Source: an uncultured Candidatus Saccharibacteria bacterium (GTDB lineage: Bacteria; Patescibacteriota; Saccharimonadia; Saccharimonadales; Saccharimonadaceae). From it: DNA of 64,000 nucleotides. The stretch covers positions 75,911 to 139,910 of the forward strand of contig CALDNO010000002.1 of NCBI GenBank assembly GCA_937915225.1. Reading direction: 5' to 3'. Below are positions 10,986-61,310 of the stretch, one piece after another (within the stretch, counting starts at the first letter, position 1; each line of letters begins with the position of its first letter). A program made the translations under genes and the position numbers. Below the pieces are notes generated by a model that worked only from the letters and a program-made list of their open reading frames with translations, searched no databases and had not been told where the DNA came from.

Positions 10986-13318
10986 TGCGCGACTATTTGG
11001 ACATTATCAAGCGGAATCTGCTCTCACCTATTGTCGTGGTGATTTTTCTGTTGGCTGGCGCGCTGGTTTATGTTCGCGAATATCGTGACGCGTGGTTTAT
11101 CTCAGTGGTGATTGTCGTGAATTCGACGATTGGCATTATTCAGGAGTTAAGGGCTAAGCGAGTTTTACGTCAATTGGAGCTAATGAGCGCGCCGAAAGCT
11201 CGATTGTTAAGGAATGGAAATGTTGTCGAGGTTGGTTATGATGAGCTTAAGATTGGCGATGAGATTCTTATTCAGGCTGGCGATGAACTACCTGCGGACG
11301 CGAAAGTTATCGAGTCAAAAGGCTTGGAGCTGAATGAAAGTATGCTGACTGGTGAGTCTGCGTCGATTGAGAAAAAGGACGGCGATGTCGTGTTGGCGGC
11401 GACGACGGTTTTGGCTGGCGAGGGCACGGCGCGAGTAATTGCGATTGGCGACGACACGAAAGCTGGCGCGATTAGCCAAGTCCTGAAGCGTTACAAACCA
11501 GAACTCACGCCCTTGCAATTAGCGATTTGGCGCGCAATTTATTTCTTGACTTACGGCGCAATTGTCCTGTCGCTACTTATTGCTATCGTCTATTATTTCT
11601 CTGGCGATAACGTCGTCGTCATCTTAAAAACCATCACTTCGGCAGCGGTTACAGTCGTGCCAGAGGGTCTGTTGTTGGCGAGTTCGCTGCTTTTGGCGTT
11701 CGGCTCACTGCGATTAGCTCAGGCGAAAGTCTTGCCACAAAAATTGTCAGCAATTGAAGCCATGGCTCTTCTGAATTTGCTGGCTGTAGATAAAACAGGC
11801 ACCTTGACCAGCGATGAAGTTACGTTGGAGCAGGTCGCGGCTTTCGGTGATGAAAATGACTATTCAGACTCTGACGTCGCCAGCTTTGCGGCGTTAATTG
11901 CTCATGAAACCAGCGGCGGAAATATCACTGGTCGTGCAATCTTGTCGGAAGCTACATCGCCAAAAAATACGAAAGTTCTGGAAGTGATGGCGTTTTCGTC
12001 GGCGCGTAAAATGGCTGGCGTGAGGGCGAATATTGACGGTGAAATTCGGACGTTGATGATGGGCGCGCCAGAGTTTGTGTCGAAGTTGGCGCCAGTAGAT
12101 AAGGAAACTCAGAAGAAGTTGAATGATTGGGCTGACAATGGTTTGCGCGTGTTGATGTTGGCTGAATTTTCGGACGATAAAACCAAATTGAAAGACTTGA
12201 AAAATGGTTCTGGAACGGCAATTGGTGCGGTTGTTCTGCGCAATTCCCTGCGTCATGGCGTTGTTGAAACGGTGGATTTTTTGCAGCGCCAAGGCGTAAC
12301 TATTCGCGTAATCTCTGGTGATAATCCGCGCACAGTTCAATACATCGCCAAAGAAGCTGGAATTAAACATCCAGAAAAGGCGATTTTAGGTGAAGATTTG
12401 GCGGTGCTTAGCGAAGATGAATTTAATAAAGCGGCCGACACTTACACGATTTTTGCCAGAGTTTTGCCAGACCAAAAAGAGCGCTTGATCAATCGATTTC
12501 AGCAATCTGGCAAGTTTACTGGCATGGTCGGCGACGGCGTGAACGACGCTCTGGCTCTGAAAAAGGCTGACCTCGGTGTGGCGATGTACGCTGGCGCTCC
12601 GGCATCTCGTCGAGTTTCCGACATTATATTGCTCAACAATTCGTTCACTTCCCTTCCGATGGGGATGAAATTGGGCAATCAAATAATGCAAGCAATCGAA
12701 GTCATCGCTGTCCTGTTTTTCCATAAAATTATTTACGGCGTGACGCTTCTTCTTGCGACGATTCTCATCAATATGAATTATCCGTATTCGCCGCGCCATA
12801 TTACGTTTATGAATATTTTTCTGGTGACGATGCCGACTCTTATGTGGACGCTATTTCCGCCCGTTCCGAAGCATCGAATAAATCCGAAGAGATTTTGGCA
12901 TGATACTTTGCTGGCTGTTACGCCGATTGCTTTAATTACTGGCTTGACTGTCGCGTTCACCTATTGGATTACCTCTGTTATGTTCCCTGGTCACGCCGCG
13001 GAAGTCGCAACGATGACCGTACTTACCGCGACTTTGTTTGGCGTATATTTGGTGTTCTTGGTGGGAATTATGCTGGACGTAGCTATCGATAAATCCGCCA
13101 AACGTGCCCGGCTATTATACTTGTTGTCAGTGGTTGTTGTGGCGGCTGGAAGCTTTGGTTTTGGGTTCCTGCGCGACTTTTTCGATTTCACCGTGCTAAA
13201 TTTGTTCATAATGTGGCCAGCAGTTGTTGTAATTGCCATAGCGATGATAGCCCAGTGGTGGCTAGCCCGCCGTGCTGGTAAAAAAATAACTACTAATGAA
13301 CGCCAGAAAAAAGTATAA
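10985..13318 (+). CDS. P-type cation-transporting ATPase
   Basis: TGES, PEGL, DKTGT, SGDN, GDGVND motifs and multiple TM segments. Confidence 0.95.
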   Translation: MRDYLDIIKRNLLSPIVVVIFLLAGALVYVREYRDAWFISVVIVVNSTIGIIQELRAKRVLRQLELMSAPKARLLRNGNVVEVGYDELKIGDEILIQAGDELPADAKVIESKGLELNESMLTGESASIEKKDGDVVLAATTVLAGEGTARVIAIGDDTKAGAISQVLKRYKPELTPLQLAIWRAIYFLTYGAIVLSLLIAIVYYFSGDNVVVILKTITSAAVTVVPEGLLLASSLLLAFGSLRLAQAKVLPQKLSAIEAMALLNLLAVDKTGTLTSDEVTLEQVAAFGDENDYSDSDVASFAALIAHETSGGNITGRAILSEATSPKNTKVLEVMAFSSARKMAGVRANIDGEIRTLMMGAPEFVSKLAPVDKETQKKLNDWADNGLRVLMLAEFSDDKTKLKDLKNGSGTAIGAVVLRNSLRHGVVETVDFLQRQGVTIRVISGDNPRTVQYIAKEAGIKHPEKAILGEDLAVLSEDEFNKAADTYTIFARVLPDQKERLINRFQQSGKFTGMVGDGVNDALALKKADLGVAMYAGAPASRRVSDIILLNNSFTSLPMGMKLGNQIMQAIEVIAVLFFHKIIYGVTLLLATILINMNYPYSPRHITFMNIFLVTMPTLMWTLFPPVPKHRINPKRFWHDTLLAVTPIALITGLTVAFTYWITSVMFPGHAAEVATMTVLTATLFGVYLVFLVGIMLDVAIDKSAKRARLLYLLSVVVVAAGSFGFGFLRDFFDFTVLNLFIMWPAVVVIAIAMIAQWWLARRAGKKITTNERQKKV
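13209..13255 (+). repeat. 47-bp direct repeat, copy 1 (3' end of ATPase gene)
   Basis: Matches 14395-14441 at 44 of 47 nt. Confidence 0.9.
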
Positions 13319-14394: not shown

Positions 14395-14483
14395 TAATGT
14401 GGCCAGCAGTTGGTGTAATTGCCATAGTGATGTTAGCCCAGCTACTCATTGTTCGCTGGGCTGGTCGGCGAATTGTTCGGTAG
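14395..14483 (+). repeat. Direct repeat copy 2, continuing as an orphan alternative ATPase C-terminus
   Basis: Reads MWPAVGVIAIVMLAQLLIVRWAGRRIVR* versus MWPAVVVIAIAMIAQWWLARRAGKKI in the ATPase. Confidence 0.85.
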
Positions 14484-23978: not shown

Positions 23979-25412
23979 CTATTTCCATGTCCAGATGCTG
24001 CCACTTGGAGTGTCGCGAACGGCAACGCCAGCCTGAAGAAGTTCATCGCGGATTCTGTCGGATTCTTCCCAATTTTTCTCTGCGCGTGCTTGACGTCGCT
24101 GGATAATCAACCTCTTCAAATCGTCAGTAATATCGGGCGTAGACTCAGTCAAATCCAGTCCCAAAATCTCGTCAATCTCATCAATAAACTGCACTAAACT
24201 CTGTCGATGAATTTTATCAAGCGACGTATGATCCAACTTTGAAAATACTTCATCAATCAACGCCAGTGCGCCTGGAGTATCCAAATCGTCATTCAATTTC
24301 TCGACCAACGCCTGACGTCCCGCTAGCAACGAAACTGAATCGTCCTGCTCGTCCTTATCATCGTCATCTTCCAGCGTGTCATGAGTTTGATGTCTCAGAA
24401 CCGCGTAATCCCGCCAATGATTCAATCGCGCCTGCGCTGCTTCCAGAATTTCCCAGGTAAAATTGCCTTCCGTCTGATAATGCTTACTGAGAATCGCCAG
24501 CTTAAACGCCATCGGACTAAACCCTCGCGAAATAATATCTTCCAGCGTAATAATATTCCCTAGAGATTTACTCATTTTTCGGCCGTCAACTTTTATGTGA
24601 TTATTATGTAGCCAAATCTGAGAAAATTGTTTTCCGGTCAGACTCTCGCTCTGGGCAATTTCATTCGTGTGATGAACTGGAATATGATCAATCCCGCCAG
24701 CGTGAATATCAATAGAATCCCCAAGTGTTTCACGGGCAATTGTCGAGCATTCCAGATGCCAGCCAGGAAAACCGACTCCCCACGGACTGTTCCACTCCAT
24801 ATCGCGCTTGGCGTCTTTTGGCGAAAACTTCCATACGGCGAAGTCAGTAATATTGCGCTTTCCTTCAACGCTCACTCTGGCGCCAGCTTCCAGGCCCGCC
24901 ACGTCCAGCCGCGCTAATTTACCGTAATCCTTCAAAAGCGACGTGTCAAAATACATGCCGTCGCCGTCGATTTTATATAAAAATCCCTTTTCGTCCAGTC
25001 CTTTTGCGAAGTCAATCTGCTGCTGAATATAATCCGTCGCCCGTACCAAGTAATCTGGTTTTATCAATTTCAGTACGTCGTAGGCCTCGTGATTGGCTAT
25101 GGAAATATATCTTTCCGCCACGTCCCAAGCAGTCTTCCCCTCACGGCGCGCACCTTTTTCCATTTTGTCCTCGCCGTTATCGTCATCACTTGTCAAATGT
25201 CCAACATCAGTGATGTTTTGCGTTCGAATAACGGGAATATCTTGCCAGCGTAGTAGTCGCACCAACACGTCCCAGTAAATATAGCCGACCCAGTTGCCAA
25301 TGTGCGGTTGCGAATAAACTGTTAGACCACAGGTGTAAAATTTGACCGTTTCTCCATCAAGCGGCTTCAGTTCATCTTTTCGTCTAGTGAGCGTATTGTA
25401 GAGTTTTATCAT
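23979..25412 (-). CDS. cysS: Cysteine-tRNA ligase
   Basis: LYNTLTR, HIGN, PGWHLEC, HHTNE, KMSKS; true start 25412 after a TACAAT box. Confidence 0.97.
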   Translation of the reverse strand: MIKLYNTLTRRKDELKPLDGETVKFYTCGLTVYSQPHIGNWVGYIYWDVLVRLLRWQDIPVIRTQNITDVGHLTSDDDNGEDKMEKGARREGKTAWDVAERYISIANHEAYDVLKLIKPDYLVRATDYIQQQIDFAKGLDEKGFLYKIDGDGMYFDTSLLKDYGKLARLDVAGLEAGARVSVEGKRNITDFAVWKFSPKDAKRDMEWNSPWGVGFPGWHLECSTIARETLGDSIDIHAGGIDHIPVHHTNEIAQSESLTGKQFSQIWLHNNHIKVDGRKMSKSLGNIITLEDIISRGFSPMAFKLAILSKHYQTEGNFTWEILEAAQARLNHWRDYAVLRHQTHDTLEDDDDKDEQDDSVSLLAGRQALVEKLNDDLDTPGALALIDEVFSKLDHTSLDKIHRQSLVQFIDEIDEILGLDLTESTPDITDDLKRLIIQRRQARAEKNWEESDRIRDELLQAGVAVRDTPSGSIWTWK

Positions 25413-25455
25413 TAATTCTATTGTACGGCACTCTGGTTGGTTTTTCAAAATTGAC

Positions 25456-25493
25456 ATAAAAAACAGCCCCAGTTGGGACTTAATAATTTCCAA
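25456..25493 (-). repeat. Conserved 3' element and terminator, cassette B
   Basis: 37 of 38 nt identical to 26302-26339; AGTCCC-AACT-GGGGCT then GTTTTTT. Confidence 0.9.
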
Positions 25494-25561
25494 GAAATAG
25501 CGCAAGCAGCCTTTATAAAAAAGAACAACTTGTCGCTATTGTGCGTGCTAGTAGATAGCCC

Positions 25562-26083
25562 TCAGTTGGCGTTTTTTGCCATCCTTAGGAGGTTGTCTGT
25601 GAGTAGCATCTCATGGTTGATGCTATCAAGCGCATAGCACGATATAGGATTAGTGTACACAACGAGACGAAGAGGGACTATGCTAAAGCGGCGTGCCTCT
25701 TCCGCTAGCTTAATCTCAGCGTTGGCAATGAGCGGAGGAAGGTCCACATTGAGGGCTTCACCTAACCTATCTGCTGCTGCAAACAAGCTACTCGGGGAAG
25801 CCCACTTCTGTAACTCTGGACAGTGCCGATAGGCTGCAATAGTGAACACGCATATCTCGATGCGGTTCAATATTTCTAGCAGGCCATCTAATCCGGCCTG
25901 CCCGTAGGCGTCCCTAAAATCTTCGACTAACTTCTCCCGGTCACGACAAATGGCCTCAAATAGCTTCCAATCGAGTTTACTCACTTGGACCGTAACAGGC
26001 CTAAGGACCGGATCCTCGAGTGGGCTGTCGAAAATCAGGATCTCTCCACTGCACTTACACGTTTGAGAATCGATGAGTTTCAT
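25562..26083 (-). CDS. Orphan protein, cassette B
   Basis: 173-aa ORF with GAAAGGGAG SD; no recognisable motif. Confidence 0.75.
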   Translation of the reverse strand: MKLIDSQTCKCSGEILIFDSPLEDPVLRPVTVQVSKLDWKLFEAICRDREKLVEDFRDAYGQAGLDGLLEILNRIEICVFTIAAYRHCPELQKWASPSSLFAAADRLGEALNVDLPPLIANAEIKLAEEARRFSIVPLRLVVYTNPISCYALDSINHEMLLTDNLLRMAKNAN

Positions 26084-26136
26084 CGTTCTCCCTTTCTTCT
26101 CATCCCCACGTGAATGTGGTTAAGCGTTGTTCTTTT

Positions 26137-26297
26137 CAACACAGGATGAGATTCCATTCCTCTTTATATTTTCTCCTCAAAAAAGGAATAAAACCTCATC
26201 CCGTGCTAGGCTGCTTGTCAAGGTGCGCTTTTGGACAAGGATTTACTCGTCAACAAAAGCTGTATTCATTTATATCACACTTGCGTAAAAAAGTCAA
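26137..26297 (-). promoter_or_regulatory. Promoter and structured leader, cassette B
   Basis: TTGACT-N17-TATAAA (26269-26297), 5' hairpin 26227-26260, GCACCTTGACAAGCAG 26211-26226, 29-bp hairpin 26137-26208. Confidence 0.85.
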
Positions 26298-26301
26298 TAG
26301 A

Positions 26302-26339
26302 ATAAAAAACAGCCCCAGTTGGGACTTGATAATTTCCAA
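26302..26339 (-). repeat. Conserved 3' element and terminator, cassette A
   Basis: 37 of 38 nt identical to 25456-25493. Confidence 0.9.
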
Positions 26340-26474
26340 TGAATAGTGACAAGCAGATGCGCGCTAAGACGCATCAGAAAATTGTATCTTAGACTCATCA
26401 CTATTCAGCAGTTGCTCCTGATAACTTACTGCTATAAAGCAGAAAGAAATCAGGAGGTCAGAGTTACCTCAGGA

Positions 26475-27152
26475 CTAAAGCAAGAGGCAATGCTTCCCAG
26501 GTACTACTTCGGGTAGCAATAGGCTGTTGCTGCTACCCTTTACCGATACGAGTCCTGCGTACTCGTCGCCAACGAACTTCTGCATTCGAATTTCCCCACG
26601 GTGAGGATAAGATTCTACTTTGCGGAAGTAGACGTCTTCCTTTCCAGGGATGTGAAAGTTGAATTCGCGGAGGTAAAGTGCGTTACCTACGGTCAGGCTA
26701 GCGCCTTTTCGGAATACGTAGAAGTTGCCTACGTCACCGTCCACCATGAGGAAAAAACATGATTCGTCAGTCGTGGCGATAATGGTGCCGTTTACAGTGT
26801 GAGTGACGGTAAAGAAATCGCCGTACTTTAGTTGTACGTGACCTAGGGAACCGTAGCGGAAACGGTATCCGCAAATGTTCCCATTGCCGTCGAACATTGG
26901 CAGTAGTCCAGGATCGCCCTGCTTGTTACCGAAAATGAAATCTACGGTGACACCGTAGTCGTCGGACAACTCGTAGCCGTAGAAGTGCTTCCGTTGTGGC
27001 TGGTACTCCCTGTTGCTCGGGAACATGACGTTAACGCTCTTGTCTTCGCCGGAGTAGAAGGAAAATCCACCCATGTGGAAGGCGACCTTTCGCTGTGATG
27101 GTACGGTGTACAAGACAACAGGACGCTTGGCGTTGTTTGCGATAGAGGCCAT
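26475..27152 (-). CDS. Orphan protein rich in Gly and aromatic residues, cassette A
   Basis: 225-aa ORF with GAAAGGAG SD; no recognisable motif. Confidence 0.78.
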   Translation of the reverse strand: MASIANNAKRPVVLYTVPSQRKVAFHMGGFSFYSGEDKSVNVMFPSNREYQPQRKHFYGYELSDDYGVTVDFIFGNKQGDPGLLPMFDGNGNICGYRFRYGSLGHVQLKYGDFFTVTHTVNGTIIATTDESCFFLMVDGDVGNFYVFRKGASLTVGNALYLREFNFHIPGKEDVYFRKVESYPHRGEIRMQKFVGDEYAGLVSVKGSSNSLLLPEVVPGKHCLLL

Positions 27153-27232
27153 TTCTGGCTCTCCTTTCTCTTTCTCGCGGCGAACGGTTCGCCATCTTTG
27201 CTTTTTGGCAAATAATCATGCGTGCATATGAT

Positions 27233-27420
27233 CAAGCATGAAACGAGATTTCAATTGTCAATTATATATTCTATCAACAACTAAAACCCCGCTTCATGCT
27301 TAAGTTTCGTCTTAATCTTCTTACATCTGCTTGTCAAGGTGCGCTTTCGGATAAGGAGTAAATCTCAACTCATCAACAAAAGCTAATGTTATTTATATCA
27401 CACTTATATTAAAAAGTCAA
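27233..27420 (-). promoter_or_regulatory. Promoter and structured leader, cassette A
   Basis: TTGACT-N17-TATAAA (27392-27420), 5' hairpin 27343-27383, GCACCTTGACAAGCAG 27327-27342, 30-bp hairpin 27233-27302. Confidence 0.85.
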
Positions 27421-27509
27421 TGGATTTTGTCAAAAATGTGGTATAATATTTTTCTCAACTCTGTTACAGACGTAAAGACTGATATATACCAACAATGTTA
27501 CAATAACTT

Positions 27510-28496
27510 TTAACCCTGCCCTACTTCTTGCAAAGCTTGATCTGTTGCTGTAACTAATTCTCTTACTATTTCGTCGTAATTGTCATACACGCGGAATCCT
27601 GCCGCGTACGGATGGCCGCCGCCGCCAAAATATCCAGCTACGGTATCGGCAATTGGTAAATTACCTCGTAGGCGCGCAGTCAATTTGCCGTCAGGGTAAG
27701 TTTTAATAACACAACTAAGCGCCACGCCTTCAACCAGTCTCAGCTCGTCGCCAATTAACGCGCCGGGATTATAAGCGTCGCTGTAGGTTTGGATTTCCTC
27801 AAATGGCACATGCACTAGCGCCAATTGTCCGTCTAATAAATATTCGATTCGCTCGATCAATTTTCCCTTGTACGTCAAAATTTCTGGCGATTTTTTCATA
27901 AATTCGCGTCGTCGTTCTTCAATTTCTGCGTTGGAAGCGCCCAGTTCTGTAAGTTCTCCCGCCGTATGGAAAGTCTGAGCCGTGGTGTTTTGCGTAGTAA
28001 GCCCCAGGCTATCGCTCATAATAGCTATCAATAAATCTTCGGCCGCCTGAGGATTTATCTTCCAGTCGGAATACTTGAACAGTTTATATAGCAATTCTCC
28101 GGTCGCCACGACGGTTTCTGATAGCATAATATGGTCAAAGCTAAGTGTCGATTCGGCTGTGTGATGATCGATAACCAGAGTTGGGTGCGTTTCTAAGAAA
28201 TGTCGCGCTCCAGGAGTTTCCAATACCTTACTGAGAAGCACGTCCGCGCTTGTATCGACAATTATCGCGGCGTCAGCTTGAAACGGAAAGTCGTTCTGCA
28301 CTCGATCCCAACCGCGAATGTAATGAAGATATTTCGGTATATCTACTGGACAATATAAAGTAACAGTCTTCCCTAAGTCGCTTAAGACTTCTTCTAGCGC
28401 CAAGCTTGAACCCAGGCTGTCGCCGTCGGGATTTTCGGCTTGAATAATAACTATATTGTTTGCGGATTGAATAAATTGTTTAGCTGTATCTAGCAT
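27510..28496 (-). CDS. DHH-family phosphoesterase (NrnA-like)
   Basis: NPDGDSLGS, IDHH, GGGGHPYAAG. Confidence 0.92.
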   Translation of the reverse strand: MLDTAKQFIQSANNIVIIQAENPDGDSLGSSLALEEVLSDLGKTVTLYCPVDIPKYLHYIRGWDRVQNDFPFQADAAIIVDTSADVLLSKVLETPGARHFLETHPTLVIDHHTAESTLSFDHIMLSETVVATGELLYKLFKYSDWKINPQAAEDLLIAIMSDSLGLTTQNTTAQTFHTAGELTELGASNAEIEERRREFMKKSPEILTYKGKLIERIEYLLDGQLALVHVPFEEIQTYSDAYNPGALIGDELRLVEGVALSCVIKTYPDGKLTARLRGNLPIADTVAGYFGGGGHPYAAGFRVYDNYDEIVRELVTATDQALQEVGQG

Positions 28497-28703: not shown

Positions 28704-29885
28704 ATGAACAAATTTAAGAAAATCGGCATCGCTATCTCTCTGGGATTCGCTATGCTCGGTGGAATCTGGTTGGCATCACCTTCACAGGCTGCCGGCTGTA
28801 ACAAATTTAACGTTGTATACTGTGGTACACATTCTATGTCAGAATTACAAACAGCATACAGCCGTACAGAAATTAAAGAACTATATAAAGAATGGTACAT
28901 TACCAGCACTATGATCCAAGGTGGATCAAACATGCGTGAGGGTGTAGTTGACGCAAACGGTAACATTACTGTTGACGGTCGTGTCGTGGCTACAAACTCT
29001 ATAACTGTACAGTCTAAGGCTGGTACTCGTCAGCCTCAGCCACAACGTAGCTACAAGACTTCAAACGGATATACTTACTACCAATATCCAACTGGTCAAA
29101 GCTTCGTTGACGGCCCTAAGAGCTACAGTATGTATGCATGGTTTGACAACGACGGTAAATTCATCACTGGTGTGATTAAAGACTGTGGTAACCCAGTTTG
29201 GGGTACTCCAACAACACCTCCTGCAAAACCTGCATTAACATGTGACGCATTGCAAGTTCTAAAAATTGAAGACAACACCTACAAGTTTGTTGTAAACGCA
29301 ACCGCTAAGAACGGTGCAAGCATCACCAGCTACACATACAACTTTGGTGACGGTACAACTAAGACTATTAACTCATCTACAATTGAGCACACTTACACAA
29401 AGTACGGCAGCTTCAAGGTTACTGTAATCGTAAATGGTAAAGAAAATGGCGAAGTCAAGAAACAAAGTCCAAACTGTGAAAAGACTATCGTAATTGAACC
29501 TGAAACAAAACTTCAAGTTTGTGACCTTAAGACTAAGAAATATGTAGAGATTAAGAAGTCAGAATTTGATAAAAGTAAGTACTCAACAAATCCAAATGAC
29601 TGTAAAGAAGCACCTGCTAAGATCACAATCTGTGTAATCGATAAAAAAGAGCTTCGTGAAATCAAGAAGGAAGAATACAACGAGTCAAAGCACACAACTG
29701 ACTTGAGTAAGTGTAAGGAAGTTCCTACTACACCTACTACCCCTACACCAAACACTCCTTCAACACCAACACCTAGCCCAGAATTGCCAAAGACTGGTGC
29801 AAGTGACGCGATTATGTCAGCACTAGGCCTAGGTGGACTAACTACAGCTACTATCGCTTACATCGCTAGCCGCCGCCAAATGTAA
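28704..29885 (+). CDS. Surface protein with signal peptide, PKD domain, Cys-flanked repeats and LPxTG-type anchor
   Basis: N-terminal signal; YNFGDG..HTY..G.F.V PKD pattern; Pro/Thr linker; LPKTG plus hydrophobic segment plus SRRQM tail. Confidence 0.85.
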   Translation: MNKFKKIGIAISLGFAMLGGIWLASPSQAAGCNKFNVVYCGTHSMSELQTAYSRTEIKELYKEWYITSTMIQGGSNMREGVVDANGNITVDGRVVATNSITVQSKAGTRQPQPQRSYKTSNGYTYYQYPTGQSFVDGPKSYSMYAWFDNDGKFITGVIKDCGNPVWGTPTTPPAKPALTCDALQVLKIEDNTYKFVVNATAKNGASITSYTYNFGDGTTKTINSSTIEHTYTKYGSFKVTVIVNGKENGEVKKQSPNCEKTIVIEPETKLQVCDLKTKKYVEIKKSEFDKSKYSTNPNDCKEAPAKITICVIDKKELREIKKEEYNESKHTTDLSKCKEVPTTPTTPTPNTPSTPTPSPELPKTGASDAIMSALGLGGLTTATIAYIASRRQM

Positions 29886-39241: not shown

Positions 39242-39302
39242 AAAAATCCTTTCTTTGATTGAGTTAATTTGTTATGTGCCAATTTGTTAACGTGCGGTAA
39301 TG

Positions 39303-39421
39303 GAGAATCAAAAAACGTCTTTGATTCTCGCACTACCAAAGACGTCAAATAAAACTGTTAGTTTCATCCCTCGGTGGCATTTTTACACTTGTTTTACGTC
39401 AAGTCGCCACTGTCTTTGGTA
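39303..39421 (-). promoter_or_regulatory. L10 leader RNA with terminator and antiterminator
   Basis: ACCAAAGACAGTGGC...GCCACCGAGG resembles the L10-leader core; downstream GACGTCTTTGGT/ATCAAAGACGTT hairpin plus T tract. Confidence 0.75.
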
Positions 39422-39571
39422 ATGTTCCAGACTATTGTAGCAGAAATGACAACGAAAAACAAGAGTTATGGCGATTATTTTCCAGCCGATTCAATCGCTT
39501 TATTTATCGCATTTTTGCCTAGCAAAAATCCCGCCAAAATCGACGGGATTTAATTGCCTGAAATATAAAGA

Positions 39572-60113: not shown

Positions 60114-60170
60114 AAGTATACGCTAACTAACGTTATTTTGCAGATTTCTAATGCTCGTGTCGTGCGGAAT
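60114..60170 (-). repeat. 57-bp direct repeat, orphan copy of CYTH gene 3' end
   Basis: 52 of 57 nt identical to 60726-60782. Confidence 0.9.
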
Positions 60171-60705: not shown

Positions 60706-60734
60706 AAGGCCTCCTAAATTTAATCAAGTATACA

Positions 60735-61310
60735 CTAACTAGCGTTATTTTGCAGATTTCTAATGTTCGTGTCATACGGAATTTTCCATAATTCGCCGTC
60801 GATATTCAGGTTTTTCAGAAAATTGTACATTTGTTGTTGAATGTTTTTTACGTCGACACTGTCTTCAGTCAAAACTTCCAGCTCAATAAATAGCCCTAGC
60901 CCAACAACTTCATCGATGCAGACCGTATAGTCCTCAGTTTTCGATTCAAGGCGGACTTTATCAACCGTGACAACTTCTTGCCAGTCCAGCGCTGCGAGCA
61001 TTTGGCGCGCCACATTTCCGTCATCAACTGCAAATTCATATTCATCAGACGCTAGCTTTGTCTGTCCCTCGACCTTCAGCGTCATCAAGCTCTGCTGCAA
61101 CTCGCCAGTTTCCGGATTAAGAACATCGCGCACTCGCATAATTTTTGAGCCAGGAACAATTGGCGCGTCAACTTGCTCGGGCAATAAAAATACTGTATCA
61201 ATTTGGCGTTTGCTTGAGATGGGTGCGATGAATTGGCTTTTTAGTGTGGCGATGAGATTATCACGAGTAACATCAGACGCTAATTTGAATTTGGATTCGA
61301 TTTCAATCAT
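60735..61310 (-). CDS. CYTH-domain protein (class IV adenylate cyclase-like)
   Basis: MIEIESK, QIDT, DEVVGLGLFIELE. Confidence 0.88.
   Translation of the reverse strand: MIEIESKFKLASDVTRDNLIATLKSQFIAPISSKRQIDTVFLLPEQVDAPIVPGSKIMRVRDVLNPETGELQQSLMTLKVEGQTKLASDEYEFAVDDGNVARQMLAALDWQEVVTVDKVRLESKTEDYTVCIDEVVGLGLFIELEVLTEDSVDVKNIQQQMYNFLKNLNIDGELWKIPYDTNIRNLQNNAS

What the first reader, a model, noticed from the sequence alone, without database searches (positions are those of the whole stretch)
25503..27336. Cassette-specific 5'-3' complementarity enclosing each ORF
Seen: in A, leader TGACAAGCAGATG (27324-27336) is the exact complement of trailer CATCTGCTTGTCA (26347-26359), and TTAAGACG (27308-27315) can pair with CGTCTTAG (26364-26371). 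In B, leader CAAGCAGCCT (26208-26217) complements trailer AGGCTGCTTG (25503-25512). The bases that differ between cassettes (ATG vs CCT) change at both ends together. Each trailer segment can instead fold into a local hairpin (26341-26406; 25496-25540), which also covaries. Known: such end pairing occurs in pre-rRNA processing stalks and in type I toxin mRNAs (hok, aapA). Inference: a panhandle or processing stem with two conformations; DNA-level inverted repeats are an alternative.
Basis: partly seen in the sequence, partly recalled or inferred. Interest (0 to 1): 0.85.

Follow-up and report, generated by a model that had tools for sequence, protein, structure and literature searches.

The report
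Paired mRNA ends of gene cassettes
Each small, swappable gene cassette in this tiny parasitic mouth bacterium makes a messenger RNA whose two ends can base-pair, a conserved design that in sister cassettes seems to switch on a self-cutting ribozyme.

Summary
Cassette A (leader 27324-27336 / trailer 26347-26359, plus 27308-27315 / 26364-26371) and cassette B (26208-26217 / 25503-25512) carry the stated inverted repeats. It is not chance. In 109 related cassettes from Saccharibacteria (Nanosynbacter-like) genomes, the leader end matches its own 3' UTR better than another class's 3' UTR in 89 of 109. Helix positions 6-13 carry several compensating base-pair types.

Each cassette is a self-contained transcription unit on the minus strand:
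- a shared promoter and leader hairpin, ending in the pairing segment X;
- a variable 5' UTR;
- a fast-evolving ORF;
- a 3' hairpin whose 3' arm is the partner of X;
- then either a terminator (the window's type) or a type III hammerhead ribozyme (27 of 103).

The local hairpin is rich in G·U on the sense strand, so it is an RNA structure. Folding predicts that the end-to-end helix and the local hairpin compete. In hammerhead cassettes, only the leader-bound state frees ribozyme stem III.

The most likely reading is an RNA switch that closes the 5' and 3' ends. No RNA data were available. The role in the window's terminator-type cassettes remains inferred. hok-like, integron, inverton and MITE readings are not supported.

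The parts
27327..27424 (-). Shared promoter and leader of cassette A: -35 TTGACT 27420-27415, 17-nt spacer, -10 TATAAA 27397-27392, and a leader hairpin (P1/P2) at about 27383-27343
   Evidence: Sequence. 81% identical to the B copy over 57 nt (D2 and D8). Leader profile hit at model positions 2-89. The hairpin stems covary among classes. The promoter scan did NOT list this site, because its rule needs T at position 6 of the -10.
27324..27336 (-). Segment X of cassette A (RNA UGACAAGCAGAUG): the 5' strand of the closing helix
   Evidence: P(paired to 26347-26360) = 0.91 in the full-length fold.
27308..27315 (-). Second 5' strand of the closing helix in A (UUAAGACG)
   Evidence: Pairs with 26364-26371 in the minimum-energy fold. 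Other A-type cassettes keep a second helix with different sequences.
27153..27323 (-). Cassette-family-specific 5' UTR of A, with a long G·U-rich hairpin
   Evidence: 96% identical to the copy in genome G001, up to the start codon.
26475..27152 (-). ORF A, 225 aa, an all-beta protein of unknown family
   Evidence: No Pfam or PHROGs family. Family members are 15-84% identical. AlphaFold2 mean pLDDT 55.6.
26341..26407 (-). Local 3' hairpin of A: arm 1 at 26407-26394, arm 2 plus the outer stem at 26354-26341
   Evidence: -34.4 kcal/mol for the 3' UTR segment.
26347..26371 (-). 3' strands of the closing helix of A (CAUCUGCUUGUCA 26359-26347; CGUCUUAG 26371-26364)
26302..26340 (-). Shared trailer of A, with an intrinsic terminator (stem-loop 26326-26311 and a U run)
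   Evidence: (D6).
26211..26301 (-). Shared promoter and leader of cassette B (-35 at 26297-26292, -10 at 26274-26269), directly abutting the trailer of A
26208..26217 (-). Segment X of cassette B (CAAGCAGCCU)
   Evidence: P = 0.89.
26091..26155 (-). RAGATH-10-like element in the 5' UTR of B, ending at the Shine-Dalgarno sequence
   Evidence: 30 bits, below the 41.2-bit gathering score. True RAGATH-10 sits at the same place in related cassettes.
25562..26083 (-). ORF B, 173 aa, unknown family
   Evidence: 44% protein identity to the G002 copy, although the leader and 5' UTR are each 98% identical.
25496..25540 (-). Local 3' hairpin of B. Arm 2 (AGGCUGCUUG) at 25512-25503 is the partner of X.
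25456..25495 (-). Shared trailer of B, with a terminator (25480-25465), followed by the cysS promoter-like site (25448-25420) and cysS (23979-25412)

Best explanation
**What it is.** The paired segments are parts of one RNA.

Each cassette is an autonomous minus-strand transcription unit with these parts, in order:
- a shared promoter;
- a shared ~45-nt leader hairpin;
- segment X;
- a family-specific 5' UTR;
- a fast-evolving ORF;
- a 3' UTR hairpin (arm 1, loop, arm 2);
- an end-forming module.

**How it likely works.** Arm 2 has two alternative partners.
- Arm 1 is a nearby, G·U-weakened copy of X. Pairing with it gives the local hairpin.
- X lies 220-1100 nt upstream and pairs almost entirely by Watson-Crick pairs. 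Pairing with it gives a helix that closes the whole mRNA.
- The mRNA therefore toggles between an 'ends-closed' state and a '3'-hairpin' state.

**Hammerhead-type sister cassettes.**
- The sequence just 3' of arm 2 is the 5' strand of stem III of a type III hammerhead.
- The local hairpin sequesters that strand. X binding frees it.
- The leader would therefore license self-cleavage and set the 3' end (inferred from folding).

**The window's two cassettes.**
- Here the end module is an intrinsic terminator.
- The same switch most likely sets 3'-end structure, processing (RNase III is encoded) or stability of the message (inferred).

**Exchange between genomes.** Whole cassettes are exchanged at the DNA level, with X and arm 2 travelling together.
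For: **Shown**
- The repeats exist at the stated places.
- Both lie between the conserved -10 and the terminator.
- The complementarity is kept in 103 of 109 cassettes at score >= 20.
- The compensating classes include GACAAGCAGAUG/CAUCUGCUUGUC, GACAGGCAAUCG/CGAUUGCCUGUC, GACAGACAGU/ACUGUCUGUC and GACAAGCAGCCA/UGGCUGCUUGUC.
- Own beats other-class in 89 of 109.
- In the window the extra complementary bases follow the ORF, not the trailer-leader unit between the ORFs.
- The local hairpin counts are WC 1165, G·U 170, A·C 29, other 26 over 76 distinct helices. This is a sense-strand bias.
- The long-range helix is 94% Watson-Crick.
- No cassette is inverted or empty: 0 of 109.

**Predicted**
- P(closing helix) is 0.91 for A and 0.89 for B.
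- It is >= 0.5 in 15 of 22 class representatives. The local hairpin wins in 6 of 22.
- In 16 hammerhead cassettes, mean P(stem III) is 0.64 at full length, 0.17 with X shuffled and 0.05 for the 3' UTR alone.

**Hammerhead**
- 23 distinct copies, 99% of cells paired in the three stems, core invariant.
Against: - The transcription start, the 3' ends and the pairing itself are unobserved.
- With symmetric scoring the long-range helix shows no significant strand bias (G·U 17, A·C 10; p = 0.25). Its RNA nature therefore rests on context.
- B's helix is only 10 bp.
- The local hairpin is predicted to win in 6 of 22 classes, and 4 of 16 hammerhead cassettes show neither the helix nor stem III.
- Folding of 0.5-1.1 kb RNAs is unreliable. 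It ignores ribosomes and co-transcriptional order.
- No predicted effect on Shine-Dalgarno exposure (0.41, 0.40, 0.40; n = 12).
- The role in terminator-type cassettes (76 of 103) is unknown.
- The promoter scan did not call the shared promoter.
- The hammerhead scores 28.6 bits, below Rfam's 48.5. That is a local match to model positions 7-48, and stem III lies largely outside it.
Confidence: 0.6

Rival explanations
1. DNA-level inverted repeats. X and arm 2 are recombination sites for inverting the ORF relative to its promoter (phase variation), or for excising and inserting cassettes. The covariation reflects the need for identical crossover cores.
For: - The repeats are near-perfect Watson-Crick with no significant G·U bias.
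- Cassettes do move: the slot upstream of cysS holds four different families in 18 close genomes.
- The promoter lies outside the repeats.
Against: - 0 of 109 cassettes are inverted or empty.
- A serine recombinase is present in only 1 of 5 cassette-bearing genomes.
- No recombinase gene lies between the DHH gene and cysS.
- Between the window and G001 the similarity breaks at the ORF borders, not at the repeats.
- A third copy (arm 1) with RNA-type wobble pairs shares arm 2.
Confidence: 0.12
2. No function for the long-range pairing. X is simply a homologous copy of arm 1 (a direct repeat left by cassette genesis or gene conversion). Only the local hairpin is selected.
For: - X and arm 1 are alike.
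- The local hairpin alone carries the strand-specific signal.
- The local hairpin wins in 6 of 22 predicted folds.
Against: - X matches arm 2 better than arm 1 does: 94% Watson-Crick against 84%, with 12% G·U in the local hairpin.
- X and arm 2 stay perfectly matched while the ORFs diverge to a median 52% nucleotide identity within a leader class.
- Compensating changes occur at 8 helix positions.
Confidence: 0.12
3. The trailer-leader unit between ORFs is a miniature transposable element (Correia-like, about 146 bp) with 10-bp terminal inverted repeats. On this reading the ORF-flanking complementarity is a side effect.
For: The unit 26211-26356 starts with CTGCTTGTCA and ends with TGACAAGCAG, and it carries a terminator and a promoter.
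Against: - The extra complementary bases pair across the ORF (CAT/ATG, AGG/CCT), not across the unit (AGG against ATG).
- Leader-only and trailer-only halves bound the array.
- No target-site duplication is seen.
Confidence: 0.03
4. hok/aapA-like control. The 5'-3' pairing locks a toxin mRNA in an untranslatable form until 3' processing.
For: A three-element design with one segment having two alternative partners, and 5'-3' pairing.
Against: - The ORFs are 173 and 225 aa, and cargo is diverse and mostly not small or hydrophobic.
- Predicted Shine-Dalgarno exposure is unchanged by the helix.
- No antisense promoter is conserved. One search shows only weak plus-strand matches.
Confidence: 0.05
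5. Circular RNA. The helix brings the ends together for ligation after ribozyme cleavage.
For: - A hammerhead lies next to arm 2 in 27 of 103 cassettes.
- Perreault 2011 raised circular products for clustered bacterial hammerheads but did not detect them (passages).
Against: - RtcB was not found in 5 of 5 genomes.
- A primary transcript has a 5' triphosphate.
- The window's cassettes have no ribozyme.
Confidence: 0.03

Closest known systems
hok/Sok-type mRNA fold-back (5' tac paired with 3' fbi; recalled from the literature, not read here)
   Same: - Long-distance 5'-3' pairing within one mRNA.
- One segment has two alternative partners.
- A local and a long-range conformation.
   Different: - The hub is at the 3' end (arm 2), not the 5' end.
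- The cargo is not a small toxin.
- No effect on ribosome-binding-site exposure is predicted.
- No antisense RNA is evident.
Pre-rRNA processing stalks cut by RNase III (recalled)
   Same: Flanking sequences pair to enclose a long RNA. RNase III is encoded (5 of 5 genomes).
   Different: - It encloses an mRNA.
- The helix is short: 13+8 bp in A, 10 bp in B.
- A competing local hairpin exists.
- Cleavage is untested.
Bacterial and prophage hammerheads that flank single variable genes (Perreault et al. 2011, PMC3088659; passages read)
   Same: Type III hammerheads sit next to single, non-constant genes. One example there lies beside an anti-restriction gene. Here one cargo is a Tad4 homolog.
   Different: - Chromosomal cassettes between housekeeping genes.
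- One hammerhead per cassette, at the 3' end.
- Its stem III strand is sequestered by a hairpin that a 5' leader segment can open. No such gating appears in the passages read.
RAGATH-10 RNA motif (Rfam RF03147)
   Same: It occupies the 5' UTR just upstream of the start codon in part of these cassettes (up to 92 bits; 20 of 41 genomes).
   Different: - It is an 82-nt local motif of unknown function.
- The window's copy is sub-threshold (30 bits).
- The Rfam model does not include the leader, X or the 3' elements.
Phage 'morons' and promoter-stem-loop cassettes of T4-type phages (recalled, not read here)
   Same: A single ORF is framed by its own promoter and terminator. Repeated regulatory flanks allow modular swapping.
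   Different: - Found in a bacterial chromosome.
- The flanks also contain a class-specific 5'-3' pairing and, in some cassettes, a ribozyme.
Integron gene cassettes with attC hairpins (recalled)
   Same: - Arrays of single-ORF cassettes.
- An imperfect hairpin at each 3' end.
- The first bases of a cassette are complementary to part of its own 3' site.
   Different: - Each cassette has its own promoter.
- The 5' copy matches the 5' arm of the hairpin, not the 3' arm.
- No core-site consensus and no integrase at the locus.

Membership tests
Type I toxin mRNA fold-back (hok, aapA) | Small (under about 60 aa) membrane-toxic ORF | tested here: not met
   ORFs of 225 and 173 aa. Cargo runs from 38 to 278 aa in at least 25 unrelated groups.
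Type I toxin mRNA fold-back (hok, aapA) | 5'-3' long-distance pairing with an alternative local fold | tested here: met
Type I toxin mRNA fold-back (hok, aapA) | The pairing controls access to the ribosome binding site | tested here: not met
   Mean unpaired probability of the SD/AUG region was 0.41 at full length, 0.40 without the 3' UTR and 0.40 with X shuffled (12 cassettes). This is a prediction only.
Type I toxin mRNA fold-back (hok, aapA) | Cis-encoded antisense RNA | not tested
   Only a generic promoter scan was run. No RNA data.
RNase III processing stalk | Flanks form a helix of about two turns | tested here: inconclusive
   A: 14 + 8 bp with an internal loop. B: 10 bp. Other classes: 11-25 pairs.
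RNase III processing stalk | RNase III present and cutting the helix | not testable with these tools
   The gene is present in 5 of 5 genomes. Cleavage is unknown.
Hammerhead ribozyme, type III (sister cassettes only) | Core CUGANGA ... GAAA, a UH cleavage site and three helices | tested here: met
   23 distinct sequences, core invariant, 99.0% of 391 cells paired.
Hammerhead ribozyme, type III (sister cassettes only) | Rfam RF00008 gathering score | tested here: not met
   28.6 bits against 48.5. The local match covers model positions 7-48 of 54.
Hammerhead ribozyme, type III (sister cassettes only) | Self-cleavage | not testable with these tools
   Needs in vitro transcription.
Hammerhead ribozyme, type III | Present in the window's cassettes | tested here: not met
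   No hit in the whole window. The core pattern gave 0 matches.
RAGATH-10 (RF03147) | Score at or above 41.2 bits | tested here: not met
   Window 26091-26155: 30 bits. Met in related cassettes (56-92 bits).
Inverton (invertible segment) | Flanking inverted repeats | tested here: met
Inverton (invertible segment) | Both orientations occur | tested here: not met
   0 of 109 assembled cassettes are inverted. Reads were not available.
Inverton (invertible segment) | Cognate invertase | tested here: inconclusive
   Resolvase family found in 1 of 5 genomes. Tyrosine recombinases were not searched.
Integron cassette / attC | Promoterless cassette; the 5' end matches the 3' arm of attC | tested here: not met
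   Each cassette has its own conserved promoter. The 5' copy resembles the 5' arm.
Integron cassette / attC | IntI integrase next to the array | not tested
   The neighbours are DHH and cysS. No genome-wide integrase search was made.
MITE / Correia-like element | Terminal inverted repeats belong to the repeat unit; target-site duplication | tested here: not met
   The extension pairs across the ORF, and there is no duplication.

The most novel reading that the evidence does not exclude
These cassettes are a plug-in expression module of Saccharibacteria. In it the 5' leader checks in with the 3' end of its own message.

- Segment X displaces a decoy arm from the 3' hairpin.
- In the ribozyme-bearing version this releases stem III of a hammerhead.
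- Only a complete transcript started at the cassette's own promoter would then cut itself to a defined 3' end.
- This would be a leader-gated bacterial hammerhead. It would give RAGATH-10-associated and hammerhead-associated genes a concrete architecture and a testable function.
- The terminator-type cassettes in the window would use the same switch to set mRNA lifetime.
Probability: 0.3. Interest if true: 0.9.

Novelty: new variant of a known kind. Interest (0 to 1): 0.78.

Why it matters
- The function of bacterial hammerheads and of the RAGATH motifs has been open since their discovery. Perreault 2011 calls the functions unproven and suggests allosteric control (passages).
- Here promoter, leader, RAGATH-10, cargo gene, decoy hairpin and hammerhead sit in one small unit. 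A simple base-pairing rule links them, and it can be tested by compensatory mutations in vitro.
- The units are also the fastest-changing, exchangeable genes of an obligate epibiont with a 0.7-0.9 Mb genome. Some cargo resembles phage accessory or anti-defence proteins. The units may therefore mark the genes used in its conflict with hosts or phages.
- In the searched library, the terms 'RAGATH-10' and 'hammerhead ribozyme' with 'Saccharibacteria' returned no paper. The three-term search returned four listings, none of which by title or abstract describes these cassettes.

Tried and rejected
- The window's own genome is not held. The nearest genome, G001, and the genus were used instead.
No test of RNA ends, inversion or circles was possible.

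**Methods replaced**
- RNAduplex all-against-all (one search timed out): own -27.0 against other -21.8 kcal/mol, but noisy. Replaced by a pairing alignment.
- The ungapped anchor method missed helices with indels. Replaced.
- Counts with G·U-favouring scores (G·U 35, A·C 4) were redone with symmetric scores (17 against 10, not significant).
- The 'helix enforced' energies printed were mis-registered by one base and are not used.

**Ideas not supported**
- Translation control: no change in predicted SD exposure.
- A second 5' UTR-to-3' loop pairing appears in B (12 bp, 26137-26126 with 25529-25518) but is not general. Only 17 of 81 cassettes beat their shuffles; mean z 1.06.
- MITE, integron, inverton and circular-RNA readings: see the rival explanations.

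**Cargo**
- No Pfam or PHROGs family for A or B.
- The AlphaFold2 model of A is too weak (pLDDT 55.6), so no fold search was made.

**Literature**
- Searches found no description of these cassettes.
- The preprint read (passages only) concerns host responses.
- The 2015 paper that named the RAGATH motifs was not in the library. What is said about that name is recalled.
Full report
**1. Observation**

The two ORFs lie on the minus strand between a DHH-family gene (27510-28496) and cysS (23979-25412).

- In A, the plus strand reads CATCTGCTTGTCA at 27324-27336 and TGACAAGCAGATG at 26347-26359.
- Also in A, 27308-27315 pairs with 26364-26371.
- In B, the plus strand reads AGGCTGCTTG at 26208-26217 and CAAGCAGCCT at 25503-25512.
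- The local hairpins (26341-26407; 25496-25540) are there too.

The surrounding repeats are a ~90-nt leader (27327-27424; 26211-26301) and a ~55-nt trailer (26302-26356; 25456-25509). Each occurs twice in the window, with none expected by chance.

**2. Anatomy**

In RNA sense, each unit reads as follows.

- TTGACT, a 17-nt spacer, then TATAAA.
- A leader hairpin whose two stems covary among copies.
- Segment X (UUGACAAGCAG plus cassette-specific bases).
- A family-specific 5' UTR, then the ORF.
- A 3' hairpin that starts a few to a few tens of nt after the stop codon.
- A terminator, AGUCCCAACUGGGGCU followed by a U run. The scan called it at both cassettes.

The scan did not call the shared promoter, because its rule requires T at the last -10 position. 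The promoter reading therefore rests on the sequence and its conservation. The trailer of A abuts the leader of B.

**3. Spread**

The window's own assembly is not held. The nearest genome, G001, is about 0.8 Mb.

- The leader-trailer DNA matched 22 of 25 genomes of the genus and 0 of 16 genomes from 16 other genera of the order.
- A pattern scan of public genomes returned mostly records titled Candidatus Saccharibacteria or Nanosynbacter. It also returned a minority of scattered other taxa, which I take for chance matches of a degenerate 21-mer.
- A profile search over all fetched loci gave 237 hits and 113 non-identical units. Of these, 109 could be analysed.

**4. The complementarity is conserved and covaries**

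A first look showed whole classes in which both sides differ from the window yet still match. Examples are GACAGGCAATCG with CGATTGCCTGTC, GACAGACAGT with ACTGTCTGTC, and GACAAGCAGCCA with TGGCTGCTTGTC.

| Pairing score of the leader to... | Mean |
|---|---|
| its own 3' UTR | 25.9 |
| a 3' UTR of another leader class | 19.4 |
| its own ORF interior | 15.0 |

- Own exceeded other-class in 89 of 109, and exceeded ORF-interior in 103 of 109.
- There are 22 distinct leader 13-mers.
- Position 6 is A-U in 50 and G-C in 11 distinct combinations.
- Position 10 is G-C in 51 and A-U in 9.
- Positions 11-13 each show four or more standard pair types.
- A-type cassettes keep a second helix with different sequences.
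- In the window the extra bases pair across each ORF, not across the trailer-leader unit. This rules out a MITE with terminal repeats.

**5. RNA or DNA?**

Evidence bearing on the question:

- With scores that treat G·U and A·C alike, the local hairpin has WC 1165, G·U 170, A·C 29 and other 26 over 76 distinct helices. It is therefore a sense-strand structure.
- The long-range helix has WC 738, G·U 17, A·C 10 and other 22 over 51 distinct helices. It is almost pure Watson-Crick and shows no significant strand bias (p = 0.25).
- The arm that X pairs with is the 3' arm of that RNA hairpin. Arm 1 is a wobble-weakened copy of X.
- No cassette is inverted or empty: 0 of 109, with a best nearby complement score of 18 against a typical 26.
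- A serine recombinase occurs in 1 of 5 genomes.

I conclude that an RNA switch is more likely. A DNA-level role for the perfect repeats is not excluded without reads.

**6. Folding**

- Full-length A and B fold with the closing helix at P = 0.91 and 0.89. The terminator hairpin stays intact.
- Over 22 class representatives the closing helix has P >= 0.5 in 15. The local hairpin holds arm 2 in 6, and neither forms in 1.
- The two states are therefore near each other in energy.
- These are equilibrium predictions for long RNAs and should be read as such.

**7. Hammerhead and RAGATH-10**

A weak Rfam hit in B's 5' UTR (RAGATH-10, 30 bits) led to a genus search.

- RAGATH-10 passes its cut-off in 20 of 41 genomes and in 0 of 14 control genomes.
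- It lies between the leader and the start codon (for example L237: leader 1008-1103, RAGATH-10 1166-1253, ATG 1260).
- In 4 of the 5 loci examined, a Hammerhead_3 match lies after the same ORF.
- The sequence is a complete type III hammerhead directly after arm 2: GUUCGCUC, stem I hairpin, CUGAUGA, stem II hairpin, GAAA, GCGAAC.
- It is present in 27 of 103 cassettes. The other 76 have terminators.
- The 23 distinct copies have an invariant core and 99% paired stems.
- The Rfam score stays below threshold because the local match leaves most of stem III outside it (model positions 7-48 of 54).
- The window has no hammerhead.

**8. Predicted gating**

In hammerhead cassettes the local hairpin extends over the 5' strand of stem III, pairing CGAAC with GUUCG. 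Sixteen cassettes were folded; the run was limited by time.

| RNA folded | Mean P(stem III) |
|---|---|
| Full-length transcript | 0.64 |
| X shuffled | 0.17 |
| 3' UTR alone | 0.05 |

- P(stem III) follows P(X:arm 2) case by case.
- In the 4 cassettes without the helix (P <= 0.11), stem III also fails (<= 0.11).
- This supports a model in which the leader licenses self-cleavage. It is an inference from secondary-structure thermodynamics.

**9. What the helix does not seem to do**

- Predicted exposure of the Shine-Dalgarno and start region is the same with the helix, without it, or before the 3' UTR exists.
- RtcB was not found in 5 of 5 genomes, so circularisation is unlikely.
- RNase III is encoded in 5 of 5 genomes.

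**10. Cassettes as exchangeable units**

- Upstream of cysS, 18 genomes (window included) have a cysS 5' part 86-95% identical to the window's. They carry family F1 in 7, A-like F2 in 5, B-like F3 in 4 and F5 in 2. One further genome, G014, had no leader call.
- Between the window and G001, the leader plus 5' UTR is 96% identical up to the ATG. The ORFs share no detectable DNA similarity.
- For B against its G002 copy, identities are leader 98%, 5' UTR 98%, ORF 72% and 3' UTR 87%; protein identity is 44%.
- Within leader classes, the ORF is the least conserved part in 148 of 180 pairs.

Cargo is mostly unknown. A and B have no family. One cassette encodes a Tad4 (anti-Thoeris) homolog, and others match a phage 'moron' membrane protein and a phage 'secreted protein' family.

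**11. Comparison and verdict**

- The design works like the hok fold-back in logic and like an rRNA stalk in topology. It fails the defining features of both families.
- It matches what Perreault et al. 2011 described for prophage hammerheads that flank single variable genes (passages). It adds a leader, a decoy hairpin and a pairing rule.
- I file it as a new variant of long-range mRNA end pairing, embedded in a cassette system that I did not find described.
The RNA reading is probable. The specific role in the window's terminator-type cassettes is unresolved.

Noticed in passing
L237:1752-1808 (G023) and 22 further distinct copies (alignment A2): A complete type III hammerhead ribozyme lies directly 3' of the trailer arm. 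It is present in 27 of 103 related cassettes and is not in the window.
   Followed up: yes
L237:1166-1253; L230, L232, L234, L236; window 26091-26155 (weak): The RAGATH-10 motif (RF03147) is the start-codon-proximal 5' UTR element of part of these cassettes. It passes the cut-off in 20 of 41 genus genomes.
   Followed up: partly
window 25413-27509 and loci L200-L229: The slot upstream of cysS is a cassette-exchange hot spot. Four unrelated cargo families occupy it in genomes with near-identical cysS.
   Followed up: partly
L024:985-1317 (-): Cassette cargo with a clear match to Pfam Tad4, a type I Thoeris inhibitor (E 2.9e-11, 44 bits against a cut-off of 25). It sits in a hammerhead-type cassette near cysS of genome G007.
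   Followed up: no
L049, L062, L066, L071, L075 and others: Cassettes of the GACAGGCAAUCG class end about 95 nt before a convergent tRNA gene. Several leaders cluster among tRNA genes.
   Followed up: no
L060, minus strand, unit ending at 1808: A chimeric cassette. The leader is of one class and the trailer of another, and the pairing is only partly rescued by G·U pairs.
   Followed up: no
window 26137-26126 with 25529-25518: A 12-bp pairing joins a purine-rich 5' UTR hairpin of B to the U-rich loop of its 3' hairpin. Similar pairings occur in some classes but not generally (17 of 81).
   Followed up: yes
window 60114-60170 and 60726-60782: A 57-nt direct repeat, 91% identical, with copies 612 nt apart. 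Its nature is unknown.
   Followed up: no
window 13209-13255 and 14395-14441: A 47-nt direct repeat, 94% identical, with copies 1186 nt apart. Probably two paralogous genes.
   Followed up: no
window 39301-39437 (-): A ribosomal protein L10 leader (RF00557, 55.5 bits). Six tRNA genes lie elsewhere in the window.
   Followed up: no
window 28704-29885 (+): A PKD-domain protein with a weak LPXTG anchor match lies next to the DHH gene.
   Followed up: no
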